Assembly (NCBI GenBank): GCA_003427395.1
Contig: BFEA01000005.1
Location: 6,929,495-6,993,494, forward strand
Source: Chara braunii
Lineage: Eukaryota > Plantae > Charophyceae
Direction of reading: 5' to 3'
DNA length: 64,000 nt
Shown here: positions 2,905 to 64,000 of the stretch, piece after piece
Position numbering within the stretch: position 1 is the first letter of the stretch
Layout: each line of letters begins with the position of its first letter
Made by a program: the position numbers and the translations under genes
Notes under the pieces: model-generated
What the model saw: only the letters and a program-made list of their open reading frames with translations
The model's database searches: none
Told to the model about the DNA's origin: nothing

Positions 2905-4016
2905 CAGTCTGAACTGATGCAGTACTTTAGAGGTGCCGGTGTTCACAGAATACAGGGGGGTAGGGAGAGTGGGAACAGGGGTAGAACAATCAAGCAATAT
3001 ACATACAATCCCCTGCCCACTGATGGACTGTAGACACCTAATCAAACAGAAATTAAATTTCCCGTAAATCACTCCAAAATTCGTAATAAGAATTTAATAA
3101 CGATTTAATCAGTAAAATTAATTAATAACGAAATAATAATTCTTAATGATAATCCAAAAGATAACCAATAATCAATATTTGCAAAAAAATAAATCAATAG
3201 TCAATCATTGCAATCATGATAATACGAATTTGATTGGTGTTATGATTAGGTCTCTTTGAGATCACTTGAGTCCGGGGGTTCACCGTTAATGAGTGAACTA
3301 CCCGGAAGTTGCAGTTTGAGGGTCAGATACGGCTTAGTGTGCTAAAAAAAAAATTCGGAAAATTTCAGAAGAAAAAACGCTCAAATTTTCAAAAACGCGA
3401 ATTTTCGGGAATTTCCACCGTCAAAATCCGATTTTTAAAAGCCTAAACCTATTTTCGGAATTTCTCAAGCAAGGGGAACGAAAACAGTTTCGCGAAAATT
3501 TCGGTCCTAACCCTAATTTTCCGCGTTTCTGCGAAATTTCCGGATTTACGGTCCCAAAACGTTCGAATTTCCCTAAGTTGATCTAAAACCCAAAGATTCT
3601 CGTAACCCTAATTTCCAATACGGAAAGACAACGGAAATCCAAAAGACAACGAAATATAGGATTTACAACAAAAATGCCGAAAAACGGAATGCTGAATGGA
3701 AATCAGAAACGCCAAATTTCAACATGATACTGATTCAACCCTAATTCGTGTAACATCAGAAATCCGAAACTTAATCAATTATCGGATTAGTATTACTCAA
3801 TCGGAACTCAAATAGCAGCATACCGGAAGAAAACAGAAATCCGAATTATAAGTCNGAATACCGAATTGAACGGAAATGCCGAACTAAATAGAATACCGAA
3901 AAGAAAATTTTTTGCAACTTTGAACTTAATAGTGGTACAGCTCTGATTTGGAAGATTGAGAAGGCAATCTAATTCCTAACCAGACTTACCTTCGTGAGCA
4001 GATCCGTTATATGGTC

Positions 4017-4029
4017 TGCTCCGATACCA
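4017..4029 (-). promoter_or_regulatory. Primer-binding site for initiator tRNA-Met
   Basis: The minus strand reads TGGTATCGGAGCA, 4 nt from the LTR end. Confidence 0.9.
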
Positions 4030-4033
4030 AAAC

Positions 4034-5081
4034 TGTTGCATACTTCAACGAGTATGGGCAGAACCAAAGATCAACCAATGTAGGATGAGCATGTATGCAG
4101 CGGAAGTCTGATAAACGGACTGACTCACATAGACTGGCTCACATAGCATCACTCCACACGCATACAATCGTGAGATGGTGGGGTCTGGGCCATTCATAGA
4201 CGNTGCCCAGATCCCGTACACGCATTCACAGATGAAAGGTGGGAGGAGAGACGAAGGAGGTGGGGAGGTAGACAACACCGATAGATAGAGTCTGATAGGT
4301 CTCCGATATGGTAGTCCANAATGTNNTACAACAAGATCNAAATGTCGAGGCCCATAGGTCACCAATGTCGGAGATACAGAGTCCAGATGTAACCGGTGTC
4401 CAACNGTGATGCAGCCGAGTATCAACCTCAACAATCTCCAAGTCTCCAATCAGGTAAGTACCACAGTCTCATATCACCGAAGTCCAACTCTGATCTCTGT
4501 CCAACTAGTATAAGTCTCTAGTCTGAAGAAGAAGAAGAAGAAGAAGAAGNNNNNNNNNNNNNNNNNNNNNNNNNNNNNNNNNNNNNNNNNNNNNNNNNNN
4601 NNNNNNNNNNNNNNNNNNNNNNNNNNNNNNNNNNNNNNNNNNNNNNNNNNNNNNNNNNNNNNNNNNNNNNNNNNNNNNNNNNNNNNNNNNNNNNNNNNNN
4701 NNNNNNNNNNNNNNNNNNNNNNNNNNNNNNNNNNNNNNNNNNNNNNNNNNNNNNNNNNNNNNNNNNNNNNNNNNNNNNNNNNNNNNNNNNNNNNNNGTAC
4801 CGGTACTTATACCGGTGGGGCAGAGGCCGGCCTCAATGCTGCGAGNCCTGGNCATGCCCTGAACCGTCCAGATGGACGGTTNANCCCCANCCGGCGGGCG
4901 GCAGCCTCAAGAGCGCCGCCAGGCCCAAACGATAATGCCGTTTGGGCCTGCCCGTCGGGTACTGGTCCAAGATCAGACCTTTAGGGCCTGTAATACCCCA
5001 AGGTCGGGCCTTTAGGCCCTGATGTGTCCTTCCGGCCCCAAGTCGGGTCCGGTAGGACCCGTGTGCGTCGAAGATGTAACA
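4034..5081 (-). repeat. 5' LTR (contains an N gap)
   Basis: TGTTGCA...TGTAACA termini; near-identical to 19782-20907; homology ends sharply at TGTAACA. Confidence 0.93.
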
Positions 5082-6546: not shown

Positions 6547-6640
<94 letters not shown>

Positions 6641-6647
6641 NTGTGTG

Positions 6648-6736
<89 letters not shown>
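6547..6736. repeat. (TG)n microsatellite
   Basis: Direct observation. Confidence 0.99.
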
Positions 6737-6739
<3 letters not shown>

Positions 6740-6815
6740 AGAACAACTCAGTGGGGTGGCGGCTTCTAGAATGGAAATTGATTTAAATCGAGCCTTTCAT
6801 TTATCAACTCTAGTT

Positions 6816-7238
6816 CAGGGTTGCATCCCTGCCGACCGCCGGCCCCGATCGCCGACTATTGCCGCAGACCAGTAGGGCCGACCGGTCGGCGGTCTGCCGA
6901 CCAGTCAGAAAACAACCATTCACTTTTTTTTTCAAATCTGAGTTGGGGGCTTTGCTGCGCTTGTTGAGTACAGCCCAAATCCGCTGAGAAACTCCTGGGG
7001 ATGGGGGGGTTGGGGTTGGAGTATTGGGGGGGTATAGGGGGGTATAGGTGTGATATAGGGGGTATTGGGGGGGGTAATGAGGGTGTTGGGGGCAATTTGG
7101 GGGTATTGGGGCCCGCTATGGGGGTGTTGGTGGTGTTATTCGGGGATCTGGACGCCTTTTTTTTGTGGGGTGGCGATATCCCTGACCGGTAGGTGCCGAC
7201 CAGTCAAGCGCTGCCGACCGTCGGGGGGTGCAACCCTG
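6816..7238. mobile_element. hAT-like MITE
   Basis: TIRs CAGGGTTGCA(T/C)CCC; 8-bp TSD CTCTAGTT/CTTTAGTT (1 mismatch); subterminal GCCGACC repeats. Confidence 0.85.
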
Positions 7239-9904
7239 CTTTAGTTACAAAAAATTGCTTGTAAATCTTACACCACCACCCATTCTTTGTTGCTGGATCC
7301 CGAGCCTGCACTGGTATCCTAACGAACCTGACTGGGGGAGCATTTTCAATTTGCACCCCGACCGAACCTGTGCTGGGTCTGTTCTCCGAGCCTGGTTAGG
7401 GCCTTCTGTTTACCAATTGGGATTTTTATTGGTTGCCAGCAAGGGTGGCTGTTTAAAGCCTACCAGAAGTGTGTACAACTGATGGGAACTGATCGGACTC
7501 CTTGGAAACGAGCGCAGACTGGGAACGGGGAACTGCTATGCACTTGCCATTGCTTCTAAGAATACGGAACGGTGAAAGGGGCCCGACTTCATTTTTTTCT
7601 TAGCCTATATGCCAGTAACTCTCATCACTGACCTTTGCCCCTACCTCTCCTCCTGTGCTCAAGGCTTTCCGGAAATTTCACCACTTGATCGTGTGCTCGT
7701 TCAGGTGGGTAGGAATTCATGAATCCATTTGAGGCCGTACTCACATGCGCACTTTCCTGGGTGCATCTGACTGTTTTTATGGCCCGCTCATGGACGTATC
7801 TGAACACAAAAACGTTGTGAGCTCAGTTGAAAAAGTCCTAGTCTGAGTATGCCCTGAGTCATAGGCAGGTTGGTATGTACATAGCATAGGTTCAGTAGCA
7901 AATCCAGTGTCTTTTTGTTTTGCAAGCTAGCGCATCCGCACATTGCTGTTAAAAAATATAGGCTATTTCTGGCAGTTGTGGATTTGCGGGAGAGATCAGG
8001 ATCAGGATGGTTGGGGAGCTGTGGTGGTCAGTGGTGATAATCATGTGGTGGACATTGGTATTGAATTTCAAACCGCCCTCACCTTTGAACCTTACCTGCC
8101 GAACTGACCCAATTAGGCGAGGTCTTGCACGGGTTTTGGGCAGTCTGGGAGGGGGGAAATCTGAGCCTGAGGCCCTATGTGGTGGTCCCCACTTTCGAAA
8201 GAGGGAGACTTCACCTGTCAAGCCAATGAGCCCTGGTAATGGGTCAGATTTGGCAGTGCAGGAGGGAGTAGAGAATCACTTTTGGGAGAAAGGAGGATGT
8301 CGGTGTCAACTTGAGTTGCGTGGCGAAAGTTTTAGCGACTTGTCACGTGAAAAGAAGGAAAACAGGTGAAGTACTTACTTTTTCAGTGGCTCACCCTAGC
8401 CTACAGATGCCCGGTTTGGGGACTCACAAACCTTTCTGTGAAAACAAGCCTCTGGCAAGGCGTGCAAATGAACTGGAGAATTGACGTGAACCAGCTCAGT
8501 ACCTCGTCTTTGTTCTCTTCACTGGAGCTAATGATCGATGCCAGTTGGTCCTAACTCATGCTGTCTTTGTGGAAGGTCCGTGGTAGATCCCGAGGGCGTT
8601 GGGTATTTCCTTGGGTGGTGTCGGGACCTGTGCTGAGTCCAGGCTCATGGAAGGTCCGCACCCGGAGATGTCTCCGGGCCTAAACAAGTCACTTTTTCAT
8701 GAAAACTGGACAAATGACTCCTTGATGTGACCTTCTTAGCAAGACCCGGTGTTTCGAAATGGTGGTGAAGCGTTTGGACACCAAGTTCTGCCCTTACATT
8801 CTCCAGCTAGCGAGGAACTGGCATTGGAAGGGTTTAGGGTTTAGGGTCCCCCTGCCTTCTTCCACTGGTAAGAACTGACGTCCGGAAATGGTGGCCAACT
8901 GTGTAGCATGTGGCTGCCTCTGTACTGTTGACCGATTCCCAAACAATCCTTACGACACAAACCACAAGTGGCTGACGTGTACGCTTTCTTGACTTCAATG
9001 ATCGGCCACTTCTGACCAATGCAACCACCTCCGAGGGCTGTGACGTCGTTGGTGAGGCAGCATTGGCTGTTAACTTCTCCCCATTGTCCTTTTTTGCTTT
9101 CCCACCGCTGTTTGTCGTTCTGGGTTAGTGCTGCCAGCAACCCTTTTTCTCTCTCTAGTAGACCGATTCGTTGAACGTGGTTGAACCCCCCCCCTCATCC
9201 CCCCCACCAAAGTCAACCACACATAGCCCACCAAACTGGGAGGCACTGCACTTTCTGGTGAAGAGGCAGTGTGTGTGGTCATCCTTCGACTGACCTCTGT
9301 TTCGCATCATCTGTTCAAGTTTGCACCTTGCGAGGAGCAGAACCTTTTTCGTGAGGTCTCTCCTCTCTGGTGGTGTGTTGATAAGGAAGGAGTGTCGTGG
9401 GTGTGCTCTTGACATCTCATTGGCAGTTAACCAGCATACCTTTTTCTTAACTGTCTATCCGATGAAAAGAATCCAAAGAAGTCCGGGGATGTGTTGTCAA
9501 ATTTCCAAGGGCAAAGGTTTCCGCTGTTCCATGGGCCCAAGTTTGCTGAGCACCGAAGTTTACCAAAATTAGAGGTCCAATAATTTTGTTCTTGAGAGCG
9601 TGTTGAGTAATGGATGGTGTTGGCTTGATGTGCATGCTAGCCGTGGATCTCTGTCGGTGTCCGGCCTGCTTTGATATTGCCACATGTTCATCATCTTGCC
9701 GACAGTTTCAGCTATTAGCAAAGTGCATGAAGGATGCAGATGTAATCGGCAATATAGCGCCAAGCGTCCGTCTGGAGTTTGCTGTTATCTTTATGGAATG
9801 GGGTTTGCGCCGTTAGCAAAGCTCATGAAAAATGTGAATGTGTTGAAACTCTTTATCCTTTTTGTATCCTTCTGGGCCAATATCTGGGGAGTGATTAGCC
9901 GAGT

Positions 9905-19699: not shown

Positions 19700-20907
19700 A
19701 AGATTGAGAAGGCAATCTAATTCCTAACCAGACTTACCTTCGTGAGCAGATCCGTTATATGGTCTGCTCCGATACCAAAACTGTTGCATACTTCAACGAG
19801 TATGGGCAGAACCAAAGATCAACCAATGTAGGATGAGCATGTATGCAGCGGAAGTCTGATAAACGGACTGACTCACATAGACTGGCTCACATAGCATCAC
19901 TCCACACGCATACAATCGTGAGATGGTGGGGTCTGGGCCATTCATAGACGGTGCCCAGATCCCGTACACGCATTCACAGATGAAAGGTGGGAGGAGAGAC
20001 GAAGGAGGTGGGGAGGTAGACAACACCGATAGATAGAGTCTGATAGGTCTCCGATATGGTAGTCCAAAATGTCATACAACAAGATCCAAATGTCGAGGCC
20101 CATAGGTCACCAATGTCGGAGATACAGAGTCCAGATGTAACCGGTGTCCAACTGTGATGCAGCCGAGTATCAACCTCAACAATCTCCAAGTCTCCAATCA
20201 GGTAAGTACCACAGTCTCATATCACCGAAGTCCAACTCTGATCTCTGTCCAACTAGTATAAGTCTCTAGTCTGAAGAAGAAGAAGAAGAAGAAGAAGGAG
20301 GAGGAGGAGGAGAGAGAGAGCTGACGAGGGAGGGAGGAGAGGTCCTCCGCTCCCAGGTACCTCAGGCGGCAATGGCCGCCGTGCTGGCTCAGTCGCCCTG
20401 CTGCTGCTCCGCTTGCCGCTGCGCTAATGCTGCGCTGCCGCTGCTGCTCCTTGCTCGCTCAGTCGCCCTGCTGCTGCTCCGCTTGCCGCTGCGCTAATGC
20501 TGCGCTGCCGCTGCTGCTCCTTGCTCGCTCCTGCGCTAAACTTAGCGCATCAAAACAGTGCTCTGGCGCTGACCNTAACGCACCGGTAGAGTGCCGGTGG
20601 TTCGATGCCTCCAAGTGAGGCTGTACCGGTACTTATACCGGTGGGGCAGAGGCCGGCCTCAATGCTGCGAGGCCTGGCCATGCCCTGAACCGTCCAGATG
20701 GACGGTTCAGCCCCAACCGGCGGGCGGCAGCCTCAAGAGCGCCGCCAGGCCCAAACGATAATGCCGTTTGGGCCTGCCCGTCGGGTACTGGTCCAAGATC
20801 AGACCTTTAGGGCCTGTAATACCCCAAGGTCGGGCCTTTAGGCCCTGATGTGTCCTTCCGGCCCTAAGTCGGGTCCGGTAGGACCCGTGTGCGTCGAAGA
20901 TGTAACA
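19700..20907 (-). mobile_element. Second copy of the Gypsy LTR (19782-20907) with PBS and about 80 bp of leader
   Basis: Near-identical to 3952-5081; TG...CA termini; begins immediately after poly-G and a single N. Confidence 0.92.
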
Positions 20908-25952: not shown

Positions 25953-25955
25953 GAT

Positions 25956-26029
25956 GGGAAATTAGCTTAGTTGGTTAGAGTGCTGGTCTGTCACGCCAGA
26001 AGTCGCGGGTTCAAATCCCGTTTTTCCCA
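25956..26029 (+). tRNA. trnD: tRNA-Asp(GUC), mitochondrial type (NUMT, probably not expressed)
   Basis: Full cloverleaf with anticodon arm CTGGT-CTGTCAC-GCCAG and T arm GCGGG-TTCAAAT-CCCGT. Confidence 0.9.
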
Positions 26030-26093
26030 GGAGGTATGGCTGAGTGGCTGAAGACATTGGTTTGCTAAATCAACATACAACAAGATTGTATCG
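26030..26093 (+). pseudogene. trnS: 3'-truncated mitochondrial tRNA-Ser(GCU), NUMT
   Basis: GGAGGTATGGCTGAGTGG...TTGGTTTGCTAAATC...ATACAACAAGATTGTAT resembles plant mitochondrial trnS-GCU; T arm absent. Confidence 0.85.
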
Positions 26094-42869: not shown

Positions 42870-44170
42870 ATGACCCCCATCCATCTCGCCATGGTTCTTG
42901 CGGCCGTCATTCGATGGCTGCGAAAGAGGGACCACTTGTGCGTTATGTCTGCTATGATTTTCATGCATGCTGTGACGAGCATGGTTGCCTTGCACAATGC
43001 GACGACAATGGTGTTGGTCCTGGCGTACCACTTGTACGAAGATGATGGTGGGGCCGATGCTTTCAATCCGTTGGGTGGGATCCTACCAAAAAGACGGTTT
43101 TGGGTTCGAGAAAGAGTGGGTGGGACGTGGGAGGAGCTTAACATGGAAGGAGTGGGACATGAGAAGAAATTCCGGTAGTACACACGTCTAACGAAGCCCC
43201 TGTTCAACCAATTTTTGCAGCGGATCGCGCCAAGAATACAAAGGATGGACACTCAGTATTGACCGGCGTTGCCAGCTTCATTGAAGTTCGCTTTCGCACT
43301 ATACCGATGGGCGACCGGAGGCTATTACCAACAGTGTGGTAATGACTTTGGGCTGGGATTTCACAGCGCCATCAGATGCACAGACGATGTCGCAAGAGCT
43401 CTTTGTGCTGAGTACGGCATATGCTGTCTTGGTTGACCGGGGCTCGCCTGCGAGGTACATTGGATTACTATGAGGGTAAAGGATTCCCTGGTTGTTCCGG
43501 TGTGAGTGACTGTACATCCGGTGTGAGTGACTGTACACATATCCATATCGACAAGCCACGTGGCACCGAGGCTGAGCCGTACTTCGATAGGAATAGGCAG
43601 TACTCCCTAGTTGCGCAAGTGGTGTGTGATGAGAACCTGCACATTTTAGACGTCATCGTCGGGGTACCTGGCTCGGTGCACGATTCATGTGTCCTACGCC
43701 TGTCTGATCTGTACAAGCGCGGGGAGGAGGGGAGGGAGCCTTTCATTCGGAGGACGAACATCCTCATGGATGGTGTGGTGATGGGACGATATCTGATGGG
43801 TGACGCAGGGTATCCTATCCTTCTATGGCTGATGATTCCGCTTGGAGGACCTGAACGAACTGCAGAGGAAAGAGCGTTCGACAACAAGTTCTCCGCCCTC
43901 CGCAGTGCTATCGAAAGGTGCTTTGGCCGGTTGAAAGGAATGTGGCGTTGCTTTGGCCGGAAACAAATCGCTAATATGCGGAACGTGTGTTACCAGTTCT
44001 TTGCGTGTTGCATTCTGCACAACATTATCATCGATGCCGGCATCCCCGTCGACAAGGACTTGTTGCGCAGGGCAGGGAGGGGAGATGACGACGAAGACGA
44101 CGACGACGACGATGGACATGCAGGCGGGGNTGTTGACGAAGAGGAAGACGATGCGGGGGTTGAGCAATGA
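42870..44170 (+). pseudogene. PIF/Harbinger DDE transposase (HARBI1-like)
   Basis: Motifs RFWVRER, GFPGC..DCTHI, SLVAQVVCD, PGSVHDS, YLMGDAGYP and IERCFGRLKGMWR; stops and a frameshift in the 5' half. Confidence 0.93.
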
Positions 44171-44424: not shown

Positions 44425-46310
44425 NGACATTGAGATTCCATGTGCTTGCAATTGTGGAGTGCAGTCTGACTGTCCATGCTGCGTTTTTTGTGTGTCAATC
44501 GTGGAATACGGTCTGCCTGTTTTCAGTCAAATGAGAAGCATTCAATGAGGACATCTCAGGGAAAACAGACTTCGGATGTTGTGGTCCTCACGTGGTGACA
44601 ATTTCCGCATACGTCACAGTTATACCATGCTGTTTTTTTTGTTTTTTTTTTCGTTCAAGTACATGTATTGTATTGATCATTTGTGTTTTTCGGTCGGACC
44701 AGGGACTGCTGTTGATGCACTTCACCCACAAGTTTGCACAACAACAGCAGCAGTGCATCGAAGTGGTATGATGCAGGTGCCACCACGCCCTTGCCTGCGT
44801 GTTGTGTGCATCGATTACTTCTTCGTGTGGCACTCCAACAAGACGCCCTGTTTTGCCTTTTTTTTTTTTAGGATCGTTTTTGATTTTTTTTCCTTCCCTG
44901 CACTGCTTGTTGCCATGACAAGTATTGTTTCATCTCTCTCTCTCTCTCTCTGTGCTTGTACCATTTTGACAACCATAGCTGTGTACAACGACAATCGAAA
45001 CCGTGTACTGTGTCACACCTTTGATGTGCAGATACGATGTTCGATCATGGGTGGAGGGGGACGATAACATTGTGACTGGTGATTGGACACCTGTATTCCA
45101 AACACATATGAACACATAGAATAGCAACACACATTCCAGTCGAAGATGTGAAAGCGAAACACGAAAGATAAAGATGAACCACGTATAAAAAATTAAAAAT
45201 GCGATATACCCATGGAATCTTCCATGGTCATTCAAACATCAGCCATTGGTCGTTTCATCAGTTTGAGGACCCACGGAATCAAAAACATCATACTGAATAA
45301 AAACACCTGGCCGCTTCCACGTACCCATCAAGAGTGCAGGGGTGGTACTGCTACCCGCTGATCGACGCACCGACATTCAAACAAAAAATGGCCAGGCACA
45401 GGCGGCCATCCCCACTAAGAACAAAACCACCACACTATTTTTAACCCAGAGAACAAAAAATCCGAAGCTGAAAAAAAAAAAAAAAAAAAAAAATTCCGCT
45501 GGAGAGCAACTTCAAACGACTACCCCGAACACAGCACTACCGGAGGCCGCTCACGGAATTGGCCTCCATACACATGGCTCTCCTCAACTGATCAGCCACC
45601 GCCGTGACGTCACGGCGGTTGGTGTCCGGCGACACGACTGCCAGGCTGCCAGCGATGAAGGTGATCTGCTGTCCGCGGATACCCGCCTCTGCGGAGGTGT
45701 GCGTTGACCGCTGTCACGTTGCATGCGGCCCACTGACACTGTGACACTGGTGATGGTTCCTCCTCACCTGCAGCCGGGGCTCTGCACAGTTGTTACGAAA
45801 CTGTCAGGCTGTCCAGGGTTATGGTCACAACCCCCTTCATAAAGTGCTAATTGCTGCTGCAGGCGCAAAACTTCCTCCCTCAGGACAGCAGTAGATCGGT
45901 CCGCAGCTTCGGTCCTTGACACGGCCACACCTTCTATCATGTTTGCCTTCTCCACCTCGCCCTGCAGACGCTGCAGCTCCTCCACCATACTCGTGAACAA
46001 CACACCCTGCTTCCGTGCAAGCTCATGCGCTTGCTCAATGAGGCGCCTGTGGGTGAGCACGAAATCGCCCTCCATGTCTATAACCTCACCAACATCGCGC
46101 AGCGGAGAAGAAGACATGTGGCCACCACGCGTGGACGCTCCCTTTCAGGAATCCTGCAAGAAAGCAGTCAGGAATGCGACACGCAGATGGACGGGTGTCA
46201 GATCGTACTGCCGCACCCATGCACCCGTGTGGTGTATCCCATCAGTCCACAGAAAAAAAAAAGAAAAAAAAAAGGGGGAAGTATGTTTATGTCACATGGG
46301 AGTTTGTAAT

Positions 46311-46944
46311 GGGCACAAAAGACAGCCTTCGGCGTCTGTGTCAGGGCCTGAGTTCGAAAAGGCGTTCGTAACTCAAGGCCGGCAGTGGTGTCAGGGCGGA
46401 GTTCGAAAAGGCGGTTNTTTTTTTTTTTTTTGTCTGTCGCACGGCGCCGGGTCGTGACGCGGCTGAAAAAAAAAAGAAAAAAAAAGGAAGAAAGAAAAAA
46501 AAAGGTCGGGTTTGGCCGATACATCTCGGCCGTGGCCAATCTGGGGTGTGGCCGAGACATCTCGGCCGTGGCCAATCTGGGGTATCGGCTGTGGCCAATC
46601 TGCGGTGTGGCCCAGACATCTCGGCCGTGGCCAATCTGGGGTGTGGCCGACGAGACATCTCGGCCGTGGCCAATCTGGGGTGTGGCTGAGACATCTCGGC
46701 CGTGGCCAATCTGGGGTGTGGCCGACACAGCTTGGCGCAGCGCCACCGACCCAAGCCTCTGCACGGCGCGGAGCAGCGCTACAGACCAAAAGAAAAAGAA
46801 AAAAAAAAAAAAAGAAAGAAAGAAAAAGAAAAAACACAACCGCCTTTCCGAACTCCGCCCTGACACCACTGCCGGCCTTGAGTTACGAACGCCTTTTCGA
46901 ACTCAGACCCTGACACAGTCGCCAAAGGCCTGTTTTTCGTGCCT
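46311..46944. repeat. Foldback-like insert: ~105-bp inverted arms around a ~33-bp GC-rich minisatellite
   Basis: 46311-46416 is the near reverse complement of 46838-46944; about 6 copies of GACATCTCGGCCGTGGCCAATCTGGGGTGTGGCC lie at 46515-46725. Confidence 0.85.
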
Positions 46945-47241
46945 TTAGGAACTCAAAACATGCTGCGTCCGCCGTTGTTTCAAAAAAAAAACATAACTTT
47001 CAAATCCACAGAAATGCACACAACCAAACAGTATATGCCGAGGGTCTTTGTGGACGGATCACAAAGGCCACATGGCCACCAAACATGTGACATCAAATCT
47101 TCCGGCCGTCGTACATGACACCGTCACCGTCGCAGTGTGTGTTGGCCCCTGGAGGAACAAATGCAGGGTGTCCCGCCATCGCACCTGAAAGCATCGTGAA
47201 GCATTGCAGCAGCGTGCTGTTACCTTCTGCCATGGTCTTGT

Positions 47242-48244
47242 TCATCCCATCCATGGCCTGTACAAAACTCCCTGCGATCTTGTCAGCATGACGGTCATCG
47301 CTTCGGCAAGAGCATGTGCTATGCCAGCGAACGAACCTCCCCTCGAAGCGTCAGTCGAACTCTCTGGCACCGCTCGCCGATTATGGCCGCTCCCTCCCCC
47401 GGTCCTCCTAAACTTCGCCCCGTCAGTGCTGTCGCTGTCTGCTTTCCGCTGACTCCCTCCACTCTCGCTGCCGCCGCCGGTTTCATCGTCATCTGTCACC
47501 GTGTTGGTGTGCCCTCCCTGCAAATTGATGCTGTGCATCATGCCCTCACACGAGCCATCTGCCTTCCCAAGCTTCCATTGCAGAGCATCGAACATCTGTT
47601 TGTCGTAGGTTAATGGAAGGCCCGCCTCCTTTCTCTCCGAGCGTGACATGTCCCAGTAGCTCGGCTTGCCAGATTCGCCGGTGTAATTGTGGATCTTTTT
47701 CGCTTTGTTGAGAAGGCCAGAACTTCGACTCGCAGTCCTCCATGGTGCGTTTGGGGAATCCTTGTTCCACCATTTTGCCTGTTATCCAATCGTACTGAGT
47801 CTTCTCCCGTCTCCCCCTGATCTTCTGCCGCCCCCGCCTGCTTTGCTGCGTGCAGTCTTCCTCAAACAGCATCCTCACCAGTCCCATGCTCTCCTTCTCT
47901 GTCCAGTCGGGACCCCGAACTCTCGCCTTGCCCTTGTCTCGTCCCCCACGACCTCCCCCCTCTGCCCGTGTGGACCTTTTCACGCAATCCGGCTGTGGAA
48001 TGACGTCATCAGACTGCACACCCCCTTCGTCGTTGTCGATGTCTACAGTCGCACGTCCTCCAGCCTGGGTCCCTGCAATGTCAACGGGGGGTTCGGCGAA
48101 AGCATCGCCCATGCCGCCATCAATGATGGGATCTCCTCCATCATGACAATGGCTTCCCATCCCGACATCACCACTCCTGGCAGAGATGCCTGCCCCGACC
48201 ACAGGTGCAGAACCACGGTATAGTCCGCTGTCTGAAGAGTACAT
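47242..48244 (-). pseudogene. Harbinger Myb/SANT (trihelix-like) DNA-binding protein, frameshifted; a further exon may lie at 45764-46117
   Basis: GPDWTEKESMGLVRML...YDWITGKMVEQGFPKRTMEDCESKFW, followed by MSRSERKEAGLP in another frame; located inside the TIRs. Confidence 0.85.
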
Positions 48245-49851
48245 AAACTGCGGTCAAACCTGGGTGCTGTTCGGTGGTGCTGCTGCGAAAGATGGTGAAT
48301 GGACCCTTCCCCCCTCCTCCCCCCGACATGGAGTTCGCTGGAACTGCTGCGAAAGATGGTGACTGGACACCCCCNNNNNNNNNNNNNNNNNNNNNNNNNN
48401 NNNNNNNNNNNNNNNNNNNNNNNNNNNNNNNNNNNNNNNNNNNNNNNNNNNNNNNNNNNNNNNNNNNNNNNNNNNNNNNNNNNNNNNNNNCCGTTCACCA
48501 CTGGCCCCCGTACCATGCCCATCATGCACATACCCAACTTCACGTGCCATCCCCCATGCCGGATACGGTGATTGAATGCCAGCATTCAATCTTCCCATTC
48601 CTGAAGATCGCGGTGGTCCAAAACTCTGACTTCCCGCAAGGAGAGAGGTCATACTATGAGGCTCTTTCCCTGGACTATAGACAGAAGTGTGCAGGCAGGC
48701 AAAGGTGGCAAACCGTTCGGGAGGGATGTGGCGATGCGTGACATGGCCGATGATCGTGCTGTGGCGGACAATCCTACCAGCACCGGAGCGCCAGCGCCTG
48801 GGGTGGATGGCGGGACTTCCTGGAAGCCTGTGTCCATCAGAGGAGGTGACGGGGATGGTGATCGCCGTTGCACAGGGTGTCGAGAGTCCATACCTCTAAC
48901 AAAGTTGTGATCAGACGTTGCTATTGATGGGGACGCCGCCGCCGAGCTCCACGGAACGGAAATGCAGCGCCTGGGACGAGCTATGGATCGGATTGCAGAA
49001 CAACGGCCGTTCGATTCTGAAATCGAACTGCTCTGGCAATGCACGTGGCAGAAGCAGTGCTCTCCAGGCAATGCACGTGGCGAAAACGCGGGCATGTTCG
49101 AAATGCTGTGGCAGTGCTGGGAGCGGAAGAAGTGCTCTCCAGGCAATGCATGTGGTGAAAACGCGGGCACGTTGGAACTGCTCTGGCTGTGCACGTGGCG
49201 GAAGAAGTGCTCTCCTTACGAGTGGGAGACAAGCTGCGGGCACGATGAAATGGCACGACCAATCGAAGACCAGGGTTTGATGATGGACCACCGCTGGCAT
49301 CCGTCGAAAGTACCGCTGTTGCAGGAGGAGCACGACCGGTGTGCGGTGCCAGGCCCAGGGCCTCTTCTCCTTTTTCCTTCCTCAGGTAATTTTCCCCGCT
49401 TGGAGAGCCCGGTACCCACATTTGGGACATTGACCGCCAACGGTAGAACCCTCTTGGTTTTCCTCACGTCGCACACCTCTTTGGACCAGCGGACATTCCA
49501 ACACGATGATGCGGACATCAAAAAAAAAAAAAATCAAAAATACAACACCTTTTTCGGGGAAGGGTACGGGCGTGGTGTCTTTCGGGTTTCGCACGAAAAG
49601 CCTTGCCGCCAAATGCGCCCCGCACGCCACGTCCCAGGATGTTTCCACTTCCTTGAAAAAAGAGGGGCCCCTCCGCAAGAGATGGAAAGAGGTGGGATCC
49701 CAACAATTCCCTAAGAGTGCCTCGCCTACAAGAGGTGGGATCTGCCTCTAATCCTGTCCACAACTGAGCAGCCCTGTCCAAATAACCCATTAAATTTTAT
49801 TAAATGCATCTAGGGAACAAACAGAGCTTCAAAGATTCAAACATTGCTTAA

Positions 49852-52689: not shown

Positions 52690-54640
52690 TTACTCAATCT
52701 GGCACTTTCCCTTCTGCAGTAACTTCTCGTAGTGAGCGACAACCTGTGGAGTGGTCTGCATCCGTTCCTCCCTGGTAAACCATCTGTCCTCCTTAGGATC
52801 AATGTGATGTCTGAACCGAACGCGATATTGCAGTTTCGGCTTAGGAGGACATCCTCTGCCTGTCGGTCTTGGAACTGGCATTTCTCTATGGTCCACGATG
52901 TCGACCTCTCCATCCATGGTTGGGGCCAGCATTGAGCGTCGTGAGGGAAACTGAGCAGTTTCCTTGAAAGGTGCAAGCTTGGAGGCGTGAAAGAAAGGGT
53001 AAGTGCGAAGGTGACCAGGGATCTGAACTACATATGAGTCATGATATGACGGCCCATCCGGATCATCCCCGACGATATCTAGAGCCTCCCAGGGTCCAAA
53101 GTACTGTGGCATGAGCTTACGGGATATCCCGTGCTCTTGTCCCAGTTCTGAGGACTTGATCCAGACTCTGTCCCCTACTTGGAATGTAGATGGACGACGG
53201 TGCTTGTTCTCAGACTGTATCATCGCCGCCTGTGCCCTGTGCATCTGTTCTACAACTTGCTGCATCAGGCGCTCATATCGATATGCAAACTCTAGGGTGC
53301 CTGGTGCAGCAGAAGGCTGATTCTCAGGTAGTAGAAAATCTAAGGGAAGTCTTGGTTTGAAAGTCAGTAGCAAACTGTTGGGGCTCACCCCGGTTGCACT
53401 GTGCACGACGTTGTTATACAGACTGGCGATGAGAGCAAGTTTCTCATCCCAGTCCACCTGATTAGGCTTGATGTAATGCCTCAGCAGGTGTTGAACAACG
53501 CGGTTCAGCTGCTCTGCTTGCCCGTTTGCCGCTGGGTGGTTGTCGGAGGTCATCTCCAGTTGTGTCCTTTGTTCTGCCGCTGTGGCCTTCCACGATTCAC
53601 TGGTAAATCCCACATCCCGGTCACTAATTATAGACTTTGGCAAACCGAAGTCTCTGGCCCAGTTTTCTTTGAATAGCTTAATCACGTACTCAGTCTTGGC
53701 TGTTGCAGGCATTGCGACTAACCTAGCATACTTGCTAAACCTATCTACAACGACATAGAAATATCTCATTCCACTCTTGCTGGTGACCAGCATGTCCATG
53801 AAATGCATAAACAAACTCTCACCTGACTTTTCCGGTATCGGAAGGGGCTTGAGAAGCCCAAGAGGGGTCTATGTACGTGGCTTGTCTCTCTGATAAACCT
53901 GACAAGTATCCACGTACAACTTGGTGTCTCTCATCATTGTGGGCCACCAGAACTGCTGCAGCAAGTTGGCTGCAGTTTTTTTGTAGCCAAAATGTCTTGT
54001 GGCATCATGACATTTACCTAAAAGTAAACTACGCAAAGACTCCCTATTAGGCACACACAAACGTTTCTTCCCGGCCTTCTCAAAGAACAGCTGGCCGTTG
54101 ACCAACTCAAACTCGGCAGAAGTCACTTTGTCCTTCACCTCGAGTCTACGTATGATCTCAGCCATAAACGGATCCTCGCGATAGGCTTCCACCAAAGACC
54201 GAGTAACATCGTCCGCAAGCCTAAACTCAGTGATTAGCGCACCAAGGAAGTCTGGCCTACGCGACAACGCATCAACGACTCTATTGTACTCTCCTTTGAT
54301 GTACTAAGGTTCATACTGCTCAATGACTTGGATCTATCTTTTCAACGCATCAGAGAGCACTGACTGGGTTCTCATCCACTTCAGGGTCTGATGATCAGCC
54401 CTGACGTAGAAGAAGCTACCAAGGAGGTAGTGCCTCGAGTGGGTTAGTGCTTTGTAGATCGAATAGAGCTCCTTCTCATAGGTGAACTTAAGCCAATTTT
54501 TTAGAGGGCATTTTTTTGGACATGTACTCAACATGCCTCAACTTTGGCCCCTCATGCTGCACGAGCACGACGCCTATGCCATATTGGCTGACATCCATGG
54601 TTACTATAAACGGCTTGTCAGGATCTGGAAGTTTAAATGA
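52690..54640 (-). pseudogene. pol: Ty3/Gypsy chromovirus pol: RNase H, integrase and chromodomain
   Basis: LPDPDKPFIVTMDVSQYGIG, YEKELYSI, DHQTL, DALSRRPD, HD...HFG, VVDRFSKYA, IISDRD, NGQAEQLN, LMPQYFGPW, YRVRFR...EDRWF. Confidence 0.95.
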
Positions 54641-59431: not shown

Positions 59432-59920
59432 TCAGTCCAAGGCAGGACCTTTTCCTTTCTTATCTCTTTCATAGGCTCTAACTATGTCGGGAACTATCTC
59501 TATAAGTTCTATTCTCGTAAGCCAGCGGTCGTCCTCTCGCTCCTGATAAGCAAATCGGACCTTATACCGTTTCTGTGGACGACCTCTACCTCCTGTTCTA
59601 AACACATCTTCACCTACGATGCCGTCAATGTCGTACCTTCCGTCCATGTCCGGAGGGATCATGGACTGTCTAGATGGAAACTGTTGACTTGTAACACACG
59701 GCGACAACTTTGATGCCTGAAACACAGGGTAGGTATGGAGGTGTGTTGGTATCTCTACTGTATAGGATGACCCATCCTCTCCACCCTTGACTTCTAGAAC
59801 GGGTCACGGTCCTCTATACGCGGGCAGTAACTTCTGCGAGATGTTTCCCTCAGGAGCAAACTTTTTGGACTTGACCCAGATTAAATCGCCTACTTGGAAC
59901 TGTGACGGTGTCGCACTTTT
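59432..59920 (-). pseudogene. pol: Chromovirus integrase C-terminus and chromodomain
   Basis: FQVGDLIWVKS, KLLPAYRGP, VFQASKL, YDIDGIV...YKVRFAY...DDRWL; paralogous to 52690-53200. Confidence 0.9.
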
Positions 59921-60274
59921 TCTAGTCGGGCCTCTTCAGGCGACCAGAAAGCCAACAGGCTGTCACGCAGGATTTTGTATATATTGTTTGCAATAAATAA
60001 AATAAATTAAATAAAACAAATCCCTTCCTGTTGTGTGCGTCCGGCTTCGAACGAGACCCTTGAATTGCGGTTTTCGTCGGTCCCCGGTCTTAGGAATCTT
60101 TTATTTTGATTCGGAACATCAAAGAATCATGCAAATAATATTCATAAAGTTCTGGTGTGTCATGCATTCATCAATTTTACCGTTTCTCTAGTTTTGAGAA
60201 CTGTGACTGAACCATCAAAGAATGCAATCATCAAGCAAAGCAATGTAAAGAAGCAAGACTTACTGACTCGAGCA

Positions 60275-60586
60275 ATGACAAAGTTAAATGAGGGAAGAGT
60301 AAGGACCCGGATAGACCTGGATACATATGATGTGAGAATTTATGTTCCAAAAGAAAGAAGTATGGATGCAGAGTATGGGAGATGTTGGGGATTTGCTGAA
60401 GAGGTTGTACTGAAAGAGAAAGAGAGACTGGAGAAGGAAAATAAATGTTTCACAGGATCTACTCGATTTACTGTCTTTGAGGGATTTTCAGCTCCTCTCT
60501 TACCTGATATTAATTTGTCAAGAGATGATTGGTCTGCAGTGGTTGAGTTTGCTCTGAAAGTGAGAAGAAATCAAAGAATGAAATGA
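60275..60586 (+). CDS. Unknown small ORF A1 (family A)
   Basis: Open frame with ATG in AGCAATG context; shares IDLD.YDV.IYVPK and SRD.WSA motifs with A2. Confidence 0.7.
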   Translation: MTKLNEGRVRTRIDLDTYDVRIYVPKERSMDAEYGRCWGFAEEVVLKEKERLEKENKCFTGSTRFTVFEGFSAPLLPDINLSRDDWSAVVEFALKVRRNQRMK

Positions 60587-61077
60587 GTCAGCTCTACGTA
60601 CCTCCAAGAAAGAAACCCTCGTTTAGACCGGTAAGAGGACATGGGAAGTTAAGTAAGACTGAATCAGATAAGCTTTTAAATTCCCTTAATTCTATAACAA
60701 AGAGAGTTGTGATTCCCTATGAGATCGTAAGATATGAGGCTCTAAAGAATTCAAGCCGAGAGCAGGACAGTGTGTACGTTCTTACCTTTTATTTTATTGA
60801 CCTTGATGAGTATGATGTTGGGATCTACGTACCGAAACAAAGATTTGAAGAGTACAGAAAAGATTCATGCTGACAACGAGCGTCAGATATTGTGCATGAT
60901 GAGAAAAGCAGGTCAGAACGAGAAGGGGAAAACTTCTCATGGAGTACTTATATCAGACCTTTCGTTGGAATACCATCTCCTCCTGTTGAAGGACTTACTT
61001 TTTCGAGGGACAATTGGTCGGCCATGATAAATCTTGTATGGAAAGTGAAGAGGGCCGAAGAAGAGTACTCTCAGTAG
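60583..61077 (+). pseudogene. Unknown small ORF A2 (family A), one internal TGA
   Basis: Track ORFs 60583..60873 and 60892..61077 share a frame; the TGA aligns with Trp in A1; ATGA overlap with A1. Confidence 0.75.
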
Positions 61078-61079
61078 CA

Positions 61080-61585
61080 AGGATAAATATTGTGAGGGAC
61101 AAACTTTATGAGGTAAAGGGGTATGATAATCCCTTTGTTATCATGAGGCATGAGATTTACGGGATATGACATATAACGTTTCACATTCCTTGGTCAAGTT
61201 CTTGAACTCTGACAGTCTGGACGTGAGGGTTTACTCCTCAGCCTGTCTAGAGGAGGAAGTTGATTATTTGGAGTGTCTAAAAGGGGCGTATATCAGTCTC
61301 GAGCGAACAAAAGAGTGGCTAGAGAAGTTAAGAAGAAAAGTGACATGGGGAGTGAGAGCAAGTGAATTTGAGAGACTCCCTGAGTTCTCAATTGCTGATG
61401 GGTTCGAGGACAGGAGAGATTGGATGCCTCTGCTGGAGACTATTATCGAGGTTGGCAGAGCAAGAGAGAAAGACTCTATAGTGATGATAAAATCCCTACT
61501 TTTGAGTACCTTTGAGCACAGATTCGAGATCCCTGATTATGTCCAACCTGAGATTTATCTTTCAGATGTTGCCTATGATGGTTAA
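61080..61585 (+). pseudogene. Unknown small ORF A3 (diverged family A); start codon and 5' part probably mutated
   Basis: 61166..61585 has D.LDVRVY, C, TWG..F and RRDW matching A1/A2. An upstream frame gives PFVIMRHE, similar to A2 PYEIVRYE. Confidence 0.6.
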
Positions 61586-61587
61586 CA

Positions 61588-61878
61588 ATGCCCAACTTGG
61601 TTGAACAACTAACGTTTGAGGTTGTACTGGAAGGTAGAATAGTCAAGATAGAAGAGACTCTTTGGATCTCTAATTGAAACCTCTCAACCCTAGATGAGCT
61701 TGAGTTCCTGCAACCTTTCATTGATCAGATGAGAAATTTTGCCCTGAGAGTTGTCACTGATCAGACTGAGATTAGTTATTTATTAAAGGTGGTGAAAGTG
61801 AGAACTGTTGAGAGAATATCATACCATTCCTCGAGGGAACGAGTCTCTCTTACCAAAAGAATTAGCAACGAGCTGTAA
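61588..61878 (+). pseudogene. Unknown small ORF B1 (family B), one internal TGA; absent from the ORF track
   Basis: Manual translation MPNLVEQLTFEVV...SN*NLSTLDELEFLQPFIDQMRNFALRVVTDQTEISYLLKV...ERVSLTKRISNEL aligns with B2. Confidence 0.7.
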
Positions 61879-61881
61879 GCA

Positions 61882-62154
61882 ATGCAATTTGATTATGAGA
61901 TCATAGACTTGACACGATACTTTATGATTCGGGGTACTGTGAAAGGGTATAATAAAAGATTGAGTAGGGATGATGAGAGAGAATTGATTGAAACTTACAT
62001 TGGAAGGCTGAGAAGGATTGCATTGTCACTGATCGCTATCCAGTCTATTATTGCGTACATTCTCTATGTACAAAATTCTCAAGGGGTAGAGCAGACGAGG
62101 GAGGAGAGAAACGAACATGTATCTCTGGTAAGAAGAGTGAGAAATTATAAATAA
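61882..62154 (+). CDS. Unknown small ORF B2 (family B)
   Basis: Intact 90-aa ORF starting 3 nt after the B1 stop; paralogous to B1. Confidence 0.72.
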   Translation: MQFDYEIIDLTRYFMIRGTVKGYNKRLSRDDERELIETYIGRLRRIALSLIAIQSIIAYILYVQNSQGVEQTREERNEHVSLVRRVRNYK

Positions 62155-62206
62155 GAAAAGGAAGGGCAGGAATGACAGGGAGAGAAGAAAGTATAAGGGA
62201 GAGTCT

Positions 62207-64000
62207 ATGGTCAAGATTGCAGGACGAGGAAGACCGAGTTCTTCTGCAGGGACTAATGAGGAGGCTCTTGTAGGTGTTATACGGGAACTGGTAGAGAGAG
62301 TTGACACTATAAAAGAAGGGTCAGATATTGCAAGAGCAAAGAGGCCAGATGAGAGGATTAAATGCTTCAGAGGGCCTCAAGTAAATGATTTCTTAGATGA
62401 GCATGAATTATTTGGGCTCAGTTATGGCTGGACAGAGAAGCAACAACTTAAACATCTTTTATCTTATTGTGACACTGACTCGAGGTTGGTTGTTTAAGAA
62501 CTGACGGAAGGGGCTACTACATGGGAGGAGGTCAAAAAAATAATGAGAAGATGTTCCGACTACTACCAAGAATCTCCTCAACATCAGAAGAACTAAATAT
62601 GATACTTTCAATGTTTTCCTTCAGACCTTTATCAGAACGACCAAAAGAATTTCATACTTGGATGAGGCTCAGAAATGTCATATTTTCCTGACCAATTTCA
62701 CTGAAAGGAAGACTGTTCTTAATCAGGCTCAACACTATCCTCTCAGATGGGATGAAATGGTTGCAATTGTTAGAACCCTACCTACGGTCTCTCACAAGAA
62801 GTGGTCGTTGGATCAGATCAGTACATTGGCCAAAGATTGGGAGACTGAGAATGGTATAAACAGGGGGAACAACTTGAGTGTTGAAAATATTATTCAAAGG
62901 GTCATGGCTAATTATATGCCTGCCAATCATGTTGTGGATCAGAAAGGGAAGAAAAAGGCGGAGAGTGATGATGATGAGGATGATGATGATGATGATGATG
63001 AAAACTATGGTAAGAGAGGGGATTCCTCCAGACCCCGAAAGAATTAAGGGAATGGTAAAAAAAGGAACAGAGAGAAAAGGAAGTACGACGAGCGACCAAG
63101 GAAATTTTTTGTCTGTTATTATTGTGGTGAAGGAGGTCACACAACCACTTACTGTAAGTCATTGGAAGGGGATGTGAAGAGTGGGGTGGCAAAGAAGAAT
63201 GCAATGAGTCATATTTGTGACAGTTCATGGAACAAATTAGATCCATACATCCTGGAGGTATGCGACTTCTTGCTCTTAAGCATGATGAAAAAATGAAGAA
63301 AAAGAAGAAAAGAAAGGCTAATGTGAATGTTCATACTTTCGTAAGCGAACTGCCTAAGGGACTCACACAAGAGTCTGATGATTCACTTGCCTTTATTGAG
63401 TTGCCCCGACGGTCTCTCTCTTTAGTGGAGGACGTGACTGATGACATCATTCCAGGCAGTTTTTCGTTCGGAGAGAATTCTACTCCTCATATTTCCTCTG
63501 AGTTGGCAATATTTTCTCCTAACAGGCCTACTTGTTCGGCTAACATGATGTCATTTGAATGTAACTTACCACCAGAACTTGTTATGGAACCGGACACAGT
63601 GATTGGGGAAGTGAGGAATGTTCATGCACATTTAACCTCTCAAATGATAGAGAGAAAAAAAAAAAAAGGTCGAGGAGGCTCTGATTGAAATTCTTAATGA
63701 TCAAGAACCAGAACCTTTAACCAAGAGAATTGAGCAAGGGAAAAATATAAAATTTATACTCAAGAGTGAACTAGAGGATGAAACAGTAATTACTGATGTA
63801 ATTACTAAGATGTTGGAAGAAATAAAGGTGGCGTTGTCCTTTAAGAAGACAATGACACTAGCGCCTAAGTTGAGAGAGGAATTGAAGAAATTAATTGAGA
63901 AGAAAATGATGAAAGTTAACTACTTGGGATGAGTCTTTCCTAGTCAGGTTAACAAGACTCTGCCCGGATGTAAGATGAGATTCACAACCATGGGTTTAAC
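62207..64000 (+). pseudogene. gag: LTR-retrotransposon gag with CCHC knuckle and start of the gag-pol linker; continues beyond the window
   Basis: FRGPQVNDFLDEHE...GW and TWEEVKK resemble Gag; CYYCGEGGHTTTYC knuckle at 63114-63155; multiple stops and frameshifts. Confidence 0.75.

What the first reader, a model, noticed from the sequence alone, without database searches (positions are those of the whole stretch)
60583..61884. Stereotyped stop/start junctions suggest polycistronic translation of the cassette
Seen junctions: A1/A2 is an ATGA overlap (60583-86); A2/A3 is TAG-CA-AGG (61075-82), plausibly a mutated TAG-CA-ATG because the following frame is homologous to A2; A3/B1 is TAA-CA-ATG (61583-90); B1/B2 is TAA-GCA-ATG (61876-84). 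Three starts share (A/G)CAATG. There is no room for separate promoters. Established: such spacing is typical of termination-reinitiation, as in caulimovirus polycistronic RNA and calicivirus stop-start. Inference: ribosomes reinitiate serially on the genomic RNA, or gag needs splicing or shunting to bypass five upstream ORFs.
Basis: partly seen in the sequence, partly recalled or inferred. Interest (0 to 1): 0.8.

Follow-up and report, generated by a model that had tools for sequence, protein, structure and literature searches.

The report
Five packed genes ahead of gag
A decayed copy of a high-copy repeat, likely an LTR retrotransposon of a charophyte alga, carries five small genes from two undescribed protein families packed end to end in front of a likely gag gene, a layout that suggests, but does not show, that ribosomes restart from gene to gene on one RNA as in plant caulimoviruses.

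Summary
The four junctions are in the sequence as written. They join five small ORFs: A1-A3 are paralogues, and so are B1-B2. The ORFs lie between a 160-nt LTR-like repeat and a gag-like ORF of a high-copy, probably Ty3/gypsy element. The only named homologue is from Chara braunii.

One part fails. The AGG at 61080 is not a decayed ATG, because other copies keep G at 61081. A3 most likely starts at the retained ATG 61038, overlapping A2 by 40 nt. The shared (A/G)CAATG is the plant start-codon context.

Junction lengths show no indel at 15% or more among copies, whereas the B2-gag spacer varies. Spacings of -4, -40, +2, +3 and +52 resemble CaMV (+1, +1, -19, -38, +60). Leaky scanning is unlikely: 53 AUGs precede gag, with no depletion. 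No calicivirus UGGGA motif precedes any stop.

My best reading is restart after long ORFs on the unspliced RNA (0.45). The main rival is spliced or subgenomic RNAs (0.30). Related RNA reads came mainly from one of three libraries and do not decide the question. The A and B proteins match no known family. The architecture is new to my searches; the mechanism is unproven.

The parts
59432..59959 (-). Integrase/chromodomain end of another gypsy element, into which this element appears to be inserted
   Evidence: 45% identical over 167 aa to the integrase ORF at 52693-53868 (Pfam rve and SH3_Tf2-1 on that ORF); boundary inferred from where that frame's similarity ends
59960..60119 (+). Likely 5' LTR (TG...CA, TATA-like and AATAAA words)
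   Evidence: sequence; summed contig depth falls about 6- to 8-fold after the 60032-60113 bin; 3' LTR lies outside the window; no PBS identified
60120..60274 (+). Leader with four short upstream AUGs (60129, 60162, 60222, 60243)
60275..60586 (+). ORF A1, 103 aa here; probably shortened by an internal deletion near 60299-60310 relative to other copies
   Evidence: loose ends at 60298 and 60326; 40 of 51 residues identical to a stretch of Chara braunii GBG64722.1 (counted; name)
60583..61077 (+). ORF A2, 164 codons, premature stop at 60871; starts in the ATGA overlap with A1
   Evidence: homologues have Trp at the stop position
61038..61585 (+). ORF A3, most likely starting at ATG 61038 (40-nt overlap with A2); broken here by a stop at 61167 and a frame break near 61190
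   Evidence: T61039 and G61040 have no alternative letter at 25% or more; one-base length difference at 61190 in 15 contigs, 62% of depth; 8 of 10 between-copy differences in 61193-61300 synonymous in its frame
61075..61082 (+). A2 stop followed by CA-AGG; not a decayed start codon
61588..61878 (+). ORF B1, 96 codons, 2 nt after the A3 stop; premature stop at 61675 particular to this copy
   Evidence: about 95% of depth differs at 61675
61882..62154 (+). ORF B2, 90 aa, intact, 3 nt after the B1 stop and in the same frame
62155..62206 (+). 52-nt purine-rich spacer before the gag-like ORF; variable among copies
   Evidence: 50 of the 60 bases before ATG 62207 are purines; indels and loose ends at 62146-62180
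62207..64000 (+). Decayed gag-like region with a CX2CX4HX4C knuckle, running off the window
   Evidence: sequence; Pfam zf-CCHC E=0.092, below cut-off; no significant gag hit, so gag identity is inferred

Best explanation
This is the 5' part of a decayed copy of a high-copy element, likely a Ty3/gypsy LTR retrotransposon of Chara braunii, whose five small abutting ORFs (three A paralogues, two B paralogues) are likely translated one after another by ribosomes that restart after each stop on the unspliced element RNA. Shown: the ORF layout, the paralogy, the constant junction lengths, the retained ATG 61038 and selection on A3. Inferred: the ORFs arose by tandem duplication inside the element; ribosomes enter through a short leader, translate A1, restart on the ATGA overlap, back up 37 nt for A3, step 2-3 nt for B1 and B2 (helped by a plant-type start context), and scan about 50 nt to gag. 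The restart would be of the caulimovirus or LINE-1 kind, without a UGGGA tether. A helper factor, host- or element-coded, is probably needed, because unaided restarts would leave very few ribosomes for a sixth ORF.
For: Only 5 nt of non-coding DNA lie among five ORFs whose proteins are 25-40% identical. No junction indel reaches 15% in 6,565-7,448 contigs per run, while the B2-gag spacer varies. Spacings of -4/-40/+2/+3/+52 parallel CaMV's +1/+1/-19/-38/+60, and CaMV ORF V can start 35 nt upstream of the ORF IV stop (PMC5902531 section 13). Downstream ORF A3 is under selection: 8 of 10 differences are synonymous in its frame, against 4 and 2 of 10 in the other frames. AUGs are not depleted (53 seen, 49.5 expected; 36 in strong or moderate context), which excludes simple scanning. 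The 60 nt before gag are 83% purine, unlike a U-rich plant splice acceptor (acceptor composition recalled). Related RNA reads run through the A2/A3 boundary without a dip in run X6.
Against: No translation data. No cis-element is shared among the junctions: no TGGGA, and no common upstream sequence or fold. A 37-nt back-step exceeds the roughly 20-30 nt window of TURBS-type restart (PMC10275272). No TAV-like protein was recognised. TURBS restart runs at 3-20% per step, too low for six ORFs in series. Even CaMV probably uses a spliced RNA for its distal ORFs. RNA evidence is thin: 43, 1 and 1 reads in three libraries, none 95% or more alike to this copy, in both orientations, over 311 nt only. 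Chance of the tight junctions is only 0.02-0.05. pol lies outside the window, so the element class is inferred.
Confidence: 0.45

Rival explanations
1. Spliced or internally initiated subgenomic RNAs bring the downstream ORFs and gag to the 5' end; the tight junctions only reflect compact packing after duplication.
For: Precedent in CaMV (acceptor inside ORF II; separate 19S promoter) and RTBV (PMC5902531), and Ogre splicing (PMC4408406 passages). [quoted passage not shown] Gag must be abundant (general knowledge).
Against: No joint, read pile-up or molecule end in RNA over 60990-61300 (low depth, one junction). Purine-rich stretch before gag. Splicing alone gives no reason to hold 2-3 nt spacers constant.
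Confidence: 0.3
2. Only the first ORF or two are efficiently made; the rest are duplicated passengers squeezed together by deletion.
For: This copy is decayed, and no expression of it was seen (0 of 45 RNA reads 95% or more alike). No homologue was found outside one Chara gene model and four ENA short-contig ORFs in three clusters.
Against: 8 of 10 differences in A3 are synonymous. The breaks at 61675, 61167 and 61190 are absent from most other copies. The paralogues stay open in frame at 25-40% identity.
Confidence: 0.12
3. Recoding makes fused products: a -1 frameshift in the A2/A3 overlap and stop read-through at the in-frame B1/B2 junction.
For: The A3 frame is open from 60990 through the A2 stop. 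B1 and B2 share a frame. ATG 61038 has a weak -3 base.
Against: No canonical slippery heptamer in the overlap (read by eye). The hairpin after the A2 stop is broken at 8 of 12 paired variable sites in other copies. B1 and B2 end at homologous positions. P0002, P0003 and P0005 are stand-alone 121-161 aa ORFs.
Confidence: 0.08
4. Leaky scanning, as in RTBV or green-algal bicistronic mRNAs.
For: It is the mechanism shown for chlorophyte bicistronic genes (PMC11291117 passages). B1 is somewhat AUG-poor (2 seen, 5.0 expected, 32 of 500 shuffles), so it could serve B1 to B2 locally. Some AUGs here are decay products (60362, 60525, 61143).
Against: 53 AUGs precede gag, no fewer than chance (392 of 500 shuffles have as many or fewer); A1, A2 and A3 hold 11, 11 and 13. 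RTBV needs AUG-free ORFs.
Confidence: 0.05

Closest known systems
Caulimovirus (CaMV) 35S polycistronic RNA with TAV-activated reinitiation
   Same: Several consecutive ORFs ahead of the capsid/RT genes, joined by 1-nt gaps, short overlaps (19, 38 nt) and a 60-nt gap; no TURBS needed; short uORFs in the leader (PMC5902531 sections 10 and 13).
   Different: This element has an LTR-like end and a gag-like ORF. No movement protein or TAV homologue was recognised, the leader shows no strong fold (z -0.96), and the upstream ORFs are tandem paralogues.
Ogre/Tat Ty3/gypsy elements with extra ORFs upstream of gag
   Same: Plant-lineage LTR retrotransposons with sense extra ORFs between the 5' LTR and gag, of unknown function (PMC4408406, PMC6431247, PMC6317226 passages).
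   Different: Ogre has 1-2 extra ORFs, often with a plant mobile domain. Here there are five ORFs of 90-180 codons with no Pfam family. The survey in PMC6317226 counted only ORFs of 250 codons or more, so it would miss these.
Calicivirus / influenza B TURBS termination-reinitiation
   Same: AUGA overlap at A1/A2; stop and start within a few nt at three junctions.
   Different: No UGGGA upstream of any stop; one 40-nt overlap; five steps instead of one.
SART1 and LINE-1 ORF2 translation (non-LTR retrotransposons)
   Same: Retroelement ORFs coupled by restart; LINE-1's 63-nt spacer resembles the 52-nt B2-gag spacer (PMC5972666 passages).
   Different: Those are bicistronic non-LTR elements. There is no UAAUG overlap here and no conserved downstream hairpin.

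Membership tests
Ty3/gypsy LTR retrotransposon | Paired LTRs with TG...CA ends | tested here: inconclusive
   5' candidate 59960-60119 has TG...CA and far higher copy depth than the interior; 3' end is outside the window
Ty3/gypsy LTR retrotransposon | gag with CCHC nucleocapsid knuckle | tested here: inconclusive
   exact CX2CX4HX4C in sequence; Pfam zf-CCHC E=0.092, below cut-off; no capsid hit
Ty3/gypsy LTR retrotransposon | pol order PR-RT-RH-INT and RT phylogeny | not testable with these tools
   element runs off the window at 64000; no genome held
Ty3/gypsy LTR retrotransposon | Primer-binding site after the 5' LTR | tested here: inconclusive
   no self-priming match of 8 nt or more and no TGG next to the LTR end; only one tRNA was on hand to compare
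Ogre/Tat extra-ORF elements | Extra ORF with plant mobile domain or Transposase_28 domain | tested here: not met
   0 Pfam families for all A and B pieces; one sub-threshold unrelated hit among 8 aligned A proteins
Calicivirus-type TURBS reinitiation | [quoted passage not shown] | tested here: not met
   0 of 5 stops has TGGGA within 100 nt in this copy; GGGA alone at 3 of 5, at unequal distances
Calicivirus-type TURBS reinitiation | Stop and start within about 20-30 nt | tested here: inconclusive
   met at 3 of 5 junctions; A2/A3 start is 37 nt upstream and gag 52 nt downstream
Caulimovirus-type transactivated reinitiation | Consecutive long ORFs joined by short gaps or overlaps | tested here: met
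   -4, -40, +2, +3, +52 against CaMV values
Caulimovirus-type transactivated reinitiation | Element-coded TAV homologue | tested here: inconclusive
   no family or fold hit for A or B proteins; 3' half of the element not seen
Caulimovirus-type transactivated reinitiation | Trans-activation of a downstream ORF in reporters | not testable with these tools
   bench test
Leaky-scanning polycistron (RTBV, green algae) | Upstream ORFs cleared of internal AUGs | tested here: not met
   53 seen, 49.5 expected; counted in a decayed copy
SART1-type coupling | UAAUG overlap with a conserved downstream hairpin | tested here: not met
   no UAAUG junction; the only strong hairpin is not kept in other copies

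The most novel reading that the evidence does not exclude
An LTR retrotransposon that translates six or more ORFs from one RNA by caulimovirus-style reinitiation, with one of its own A or B proteins as the transactivator. This would be the first TAV-like activity outside Caulimoviridae (none known as of PMC5902531, 2018), and a gypsy-side parallel to the polycistronic strategy of plant pararetroviruses.
Probability: 0.12. Interest if true: 0.85.

Novelty: new variant of a known kind. Interest (0 to 1): 0.55.

Why it matters
Extra ORFs upstream of gag are known in plant gypsy elements, usually one or two, with unknown function and unknown translation route. A five-ORF paralogous cassette with junction lengths held constant across many copies makes the question sharp: how does gag get made as the sixth ORF? 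The junctions are short enough to test directly in reporters. If restart is confirmed, it extends serial reinitiation to LTR retrotransposons and offers natural parts for multigene expression in plants. The two protein families matched nothing described in my searches.

Tried and rejected
No whole genome is held, so full-length copies could not be aligned.

Homologue searches for A1, B2 and a gag piece gave 0 hits among 3, 2 and 144 candidates. The profile search gave 6 hits: P0002-P0005 were kept; P0006 (repeat protein) and P0007 (IFIT) were dropped as chance.

Locus scans of viral, metagenome and prokaryote collections found nothing except L001, a chance seed match (7 bits). No RNA holder was listed by the run search; this is not used as evidence.

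Structure: A-type models had pLDDT 57 and 63. Foldseek gave no E<=0.001 in PDB or BFVD. VIA best Z was 4.7, with gelsolin-family rows, below the level that means anything. My first idea of a PC4-like fold got no support. The Atlas gave no usable hit for A1 and only scores of 0.83 or less for P0002; B2 was not searched there and B proteins were not folded.

The hairpin 61080-61169 (z -4.1, the only window below -1.5) was rejected as a family feature. No shared sequence upstream of the stops: the best pair had 3 of 200 shuffles, among 10 pairs tested. ATA 61083 as the site of a majority start was considered: neither single read of X5 or X7 differs there, and the one unlisted A>G place probably has under about 35% share (ranking rule inferred), so it is kept only as a minority or near-cognate option.

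Earlier scan findings: none returned. Literature searches showed no description of this cassette. The Chara genome paper, Macas and Neumann 2007 and Steinbauerova 2008/2011 were not seen, and repeat libraries and supplements were not checked.

Full report
Setting. The window is repeat-rich eukaryotic DNA with several gypsy remnants; no whole genome is held. The finding lies in an element that begins near 59960, apparently inserted into the integrase of a minus-strand chromovirus remnant (45% identity to the integrase at 52693-53868). A stretch of about 160 nt with TG...CA ends has far higher summed contig depth than the interior, as a 5' LTR would. Downstream come five small ORFs and then a decayed ORF with a CX2CX4HX4C knuckle (Pfam E=0.092, below cut-off). 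pol lies beyond the window and no PBS was identified, so 'Ty3/gypsy' and 'gag' are inferences. The only named homologue of any cassette protein is Chara braunii GBG64722.1, a gene model that joins an A1-like stretch (40 of 51 residues identical, counted) to a reverse transcriptase. The host is therefore likely C. braunii.

Observation. All four junctions read as stated. A1, A2 and A3 are paralogues (z 31, 10, 6), B1 and B2 are paralogues (z 14), and A and B are unrelated. The starts of A2, B1 and B2 are fixed without using the junction argument. In shuffles, 3 or more tight junctions of 4 occur with probability 0.022, or 0.046 of 5 when B2/gag is counted. Four DNA contig runs (2 samples, 1 study, possibly the window's own source) put 6,565-7,448 contigs each on 59950-62400, mostly 80-95% alike. 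Their indel table has rows only at 59981, 61190 and 62146-79, so the junction lengths are constant at the 15% level while the B2-gag spacer varies. Only 40 of 512 substitution rows were shown. None is a junction base, and the premature B1 stop at 61675 is among them (about 95% other letter). The decayed A2 stop is not listed, so absence from this list is weak evidence.

The A2/A3 junction. I spent the second lay on 60990-61300. In 339 contigs of run X2, every G and T change at 25% or more is accounted for by the listed rows (G>A 8 of 8, G>C 1 of 1, G>T 1 of 1, T changes 12 of 12). The single G>T is at 61020. So 61081 is G in other copies and AGG is not a decayed ATG. T61039 and G61040 of an upstream ATG in the A3 frame, and T61075 and G61077 of the A2 stop, are likewise kept. 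The spacer base 61079 differs in 43% of depth, at a wobble position of the A3 frame. One A>G place and two C>T places are unlisted; the A>G could touch 61038, 61076, 61080 or 61085. The A3 frame is open from 60990. The simplest reading is that A3 starts at 61038 and overlaps A2 by 40 nt. Homology does not settle the start, because the N-terminal piece alone scores -1.4 bits against the A profile. The stop at 61167 is absent from 57% of depth and the frame break near 61190 from 62%. In 61193-61300, 8 of 10 between-copy differences are synonymous in the A3 frame, against 4 and 2 in the other frames, so A3 has been under selection as a protein.

The shared motif. (A/G)CAATG occurs at ATG 60243, 60275, 61588 and 61882 (1.0 expected; 13 of 1000 shuffles reach 4). 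It matches the plant initiation consensus TAAACAAUGGCT (PMC3536603, passages). It marks good starts, not a junction-specific signal.

Mechanism. Frames change at three of the four junctions and no junction indel is common, so one polyprotein is unlikely. B1/B2 is in frame, but both ORFs end at homologous positions. Leaky scanning needs AUG-poor upstream ORFs (PMC5902531 section 10; PMC11291117 passages). Here 53 AUGs precede gag against 49.5 expected, 36 of them in strong or moderate context; a few are decay products and B1 alone is mildly poor. TURBS restart needs UGGGA upstream and codons within about 20-30 nt (PMC10275272 and PMC5972666, passages). None of 5 stops has TGGGA within 100 nt, and no shared sequence or fold was found. 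A hairpin after the A2 stop is broken at 8 of 12 paired variable sites in other copies. What does match is the spacing spectrum of CaMV: +1, +1, -19, -38 and +60, with ORF V able to start 35 nt upstream of the ORF IV stop and no cis-element required (PMC5902531 section 13), against -4, -40, +2, +3 and +52 here. I therefore favour serial restart on the unspliced RNA, probably with a helper factor (0.45). Against it: no TAV-like protein was recognised, unaided restart is inefficient, and CaMV itself probably splices for its distal ORFs. Spliced or subgenomic RNAs remain the main rival (0.30), although the 60 nt before gag are 83% purine.

RNA. Three oligo-dT raw runs, 6-13% of each read, gave 1, 43 and 1 reads on the 311-nt stretch (about 0.4, 8.3 and 0.2 per kb per million). 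None is 95% or more alike to this copy. The 43 come from many starts and both orientations and cross the A2/A3 boundary without a dip, joint or pile-up. This shows family-related molecules in one library. It cannot separate mRNA from read-through or DNA carry-over, and the leader, the other junctions and the gag start were not examined in RNA.

The proteins. Among 1.84 billion representatives the A profile found 6 hits. Four are real: the Chara model and three ENA short-contig ORFs of 121-161 aa, each a stand-alone A-sized ORF; a fourth ENA member came. Two are chance. B2 found none in a word-seeded search. Pfam, PDB sequence, Foldseek and the Atlas gave nothing significant. The model (pLDDT 63, pTM 0.62) is a small alpha/beta domain whose best VIA rows are gelsolin-like at Z 4.7 or less, rmsd 3.6 over 84 residues, a lead only.

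Comparison and novelty. Extra ORFs upstream of gag are known in Tat/Ogre elements, 1-2 per element, often with a plant mobile domain (PMC4408406, PMC6431247, PMC6317226; passages). The large survey counted only ORFs of 250 codons or more and would miss these. Ten literature searches showed no account of this cassette; the Chara genome paper, the original Ogre papers and repeat libraries were not seen. I class it as a new variant of a known kind: a likely gypsy element with an unusually large, tandemly duplicated, tightly coupled 5' cassette. Interest 0.55; 0.85 if an element-coded reinitiation activator is shown (probability about 0.12).

Noticed in passing
window 60222-60277: A second (A/G)CAATG start at 60243 is followed at once by a stop here. 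Low-agreement loose-end lines from other copies suggest a uORF of about 7 codons ending 8 nt before the A1 start, a restart-friendly leader.
   Followed up: partly
window 60298-60326: Other copies continue with different sequence on both sides of this stretch, so this copy seems to have an internal deletion of unknown length. The family cassette may have a longer A1 or more ORFs.
   Followed up: partly
window 62155-62206: The out-of-frame ATG at 62172 appears not to be an ATG in the loose-end lines of 22-23 contigs in each of three runs, so the spacer before gag may be AUG-free in other copies.
   Followed up: partly
window 61080-61169: Strong predicted hairpin (z -4.1) just after the A2 stop, not kept in other copies.
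   Followed up: yes
protein P0002 model: The top 20 VIA rows are almost all gelsolin-fold proteins, at Z 3.5-4.7; weak, but curious in an alga known for fast actin-based streaming (recalled).
   Followed up: no
run X6 on window 60990-61300: About 25-40 times more family reads than two sibling libraries: condition-specific activation or DNA carry-over.
   Followed up: no
window 3952-5081 and 19700-20907: Near-identical repeats about 15.7 kb apart (100% over 300 nt, 98% over 285 nt): LTRs of a young element or an assembly duplication.
   Followed up: no
window 43412-44170: Harbinger/PIF-type DDE transposase fragment (DDE_Tnp_4 E=3.7e-34), with Myb-like ORF remnants near 47242-48253 (by eye).
   Followed up: no
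window 25955-26030: tRNA-Asp(GTC) gene called by ARAGORN.
   Followed up: no
window 46300-46954: 132-nt inverted repeat enclosing 36/59/75-nt tandem repeats, MITE-like.
   Followed up: no
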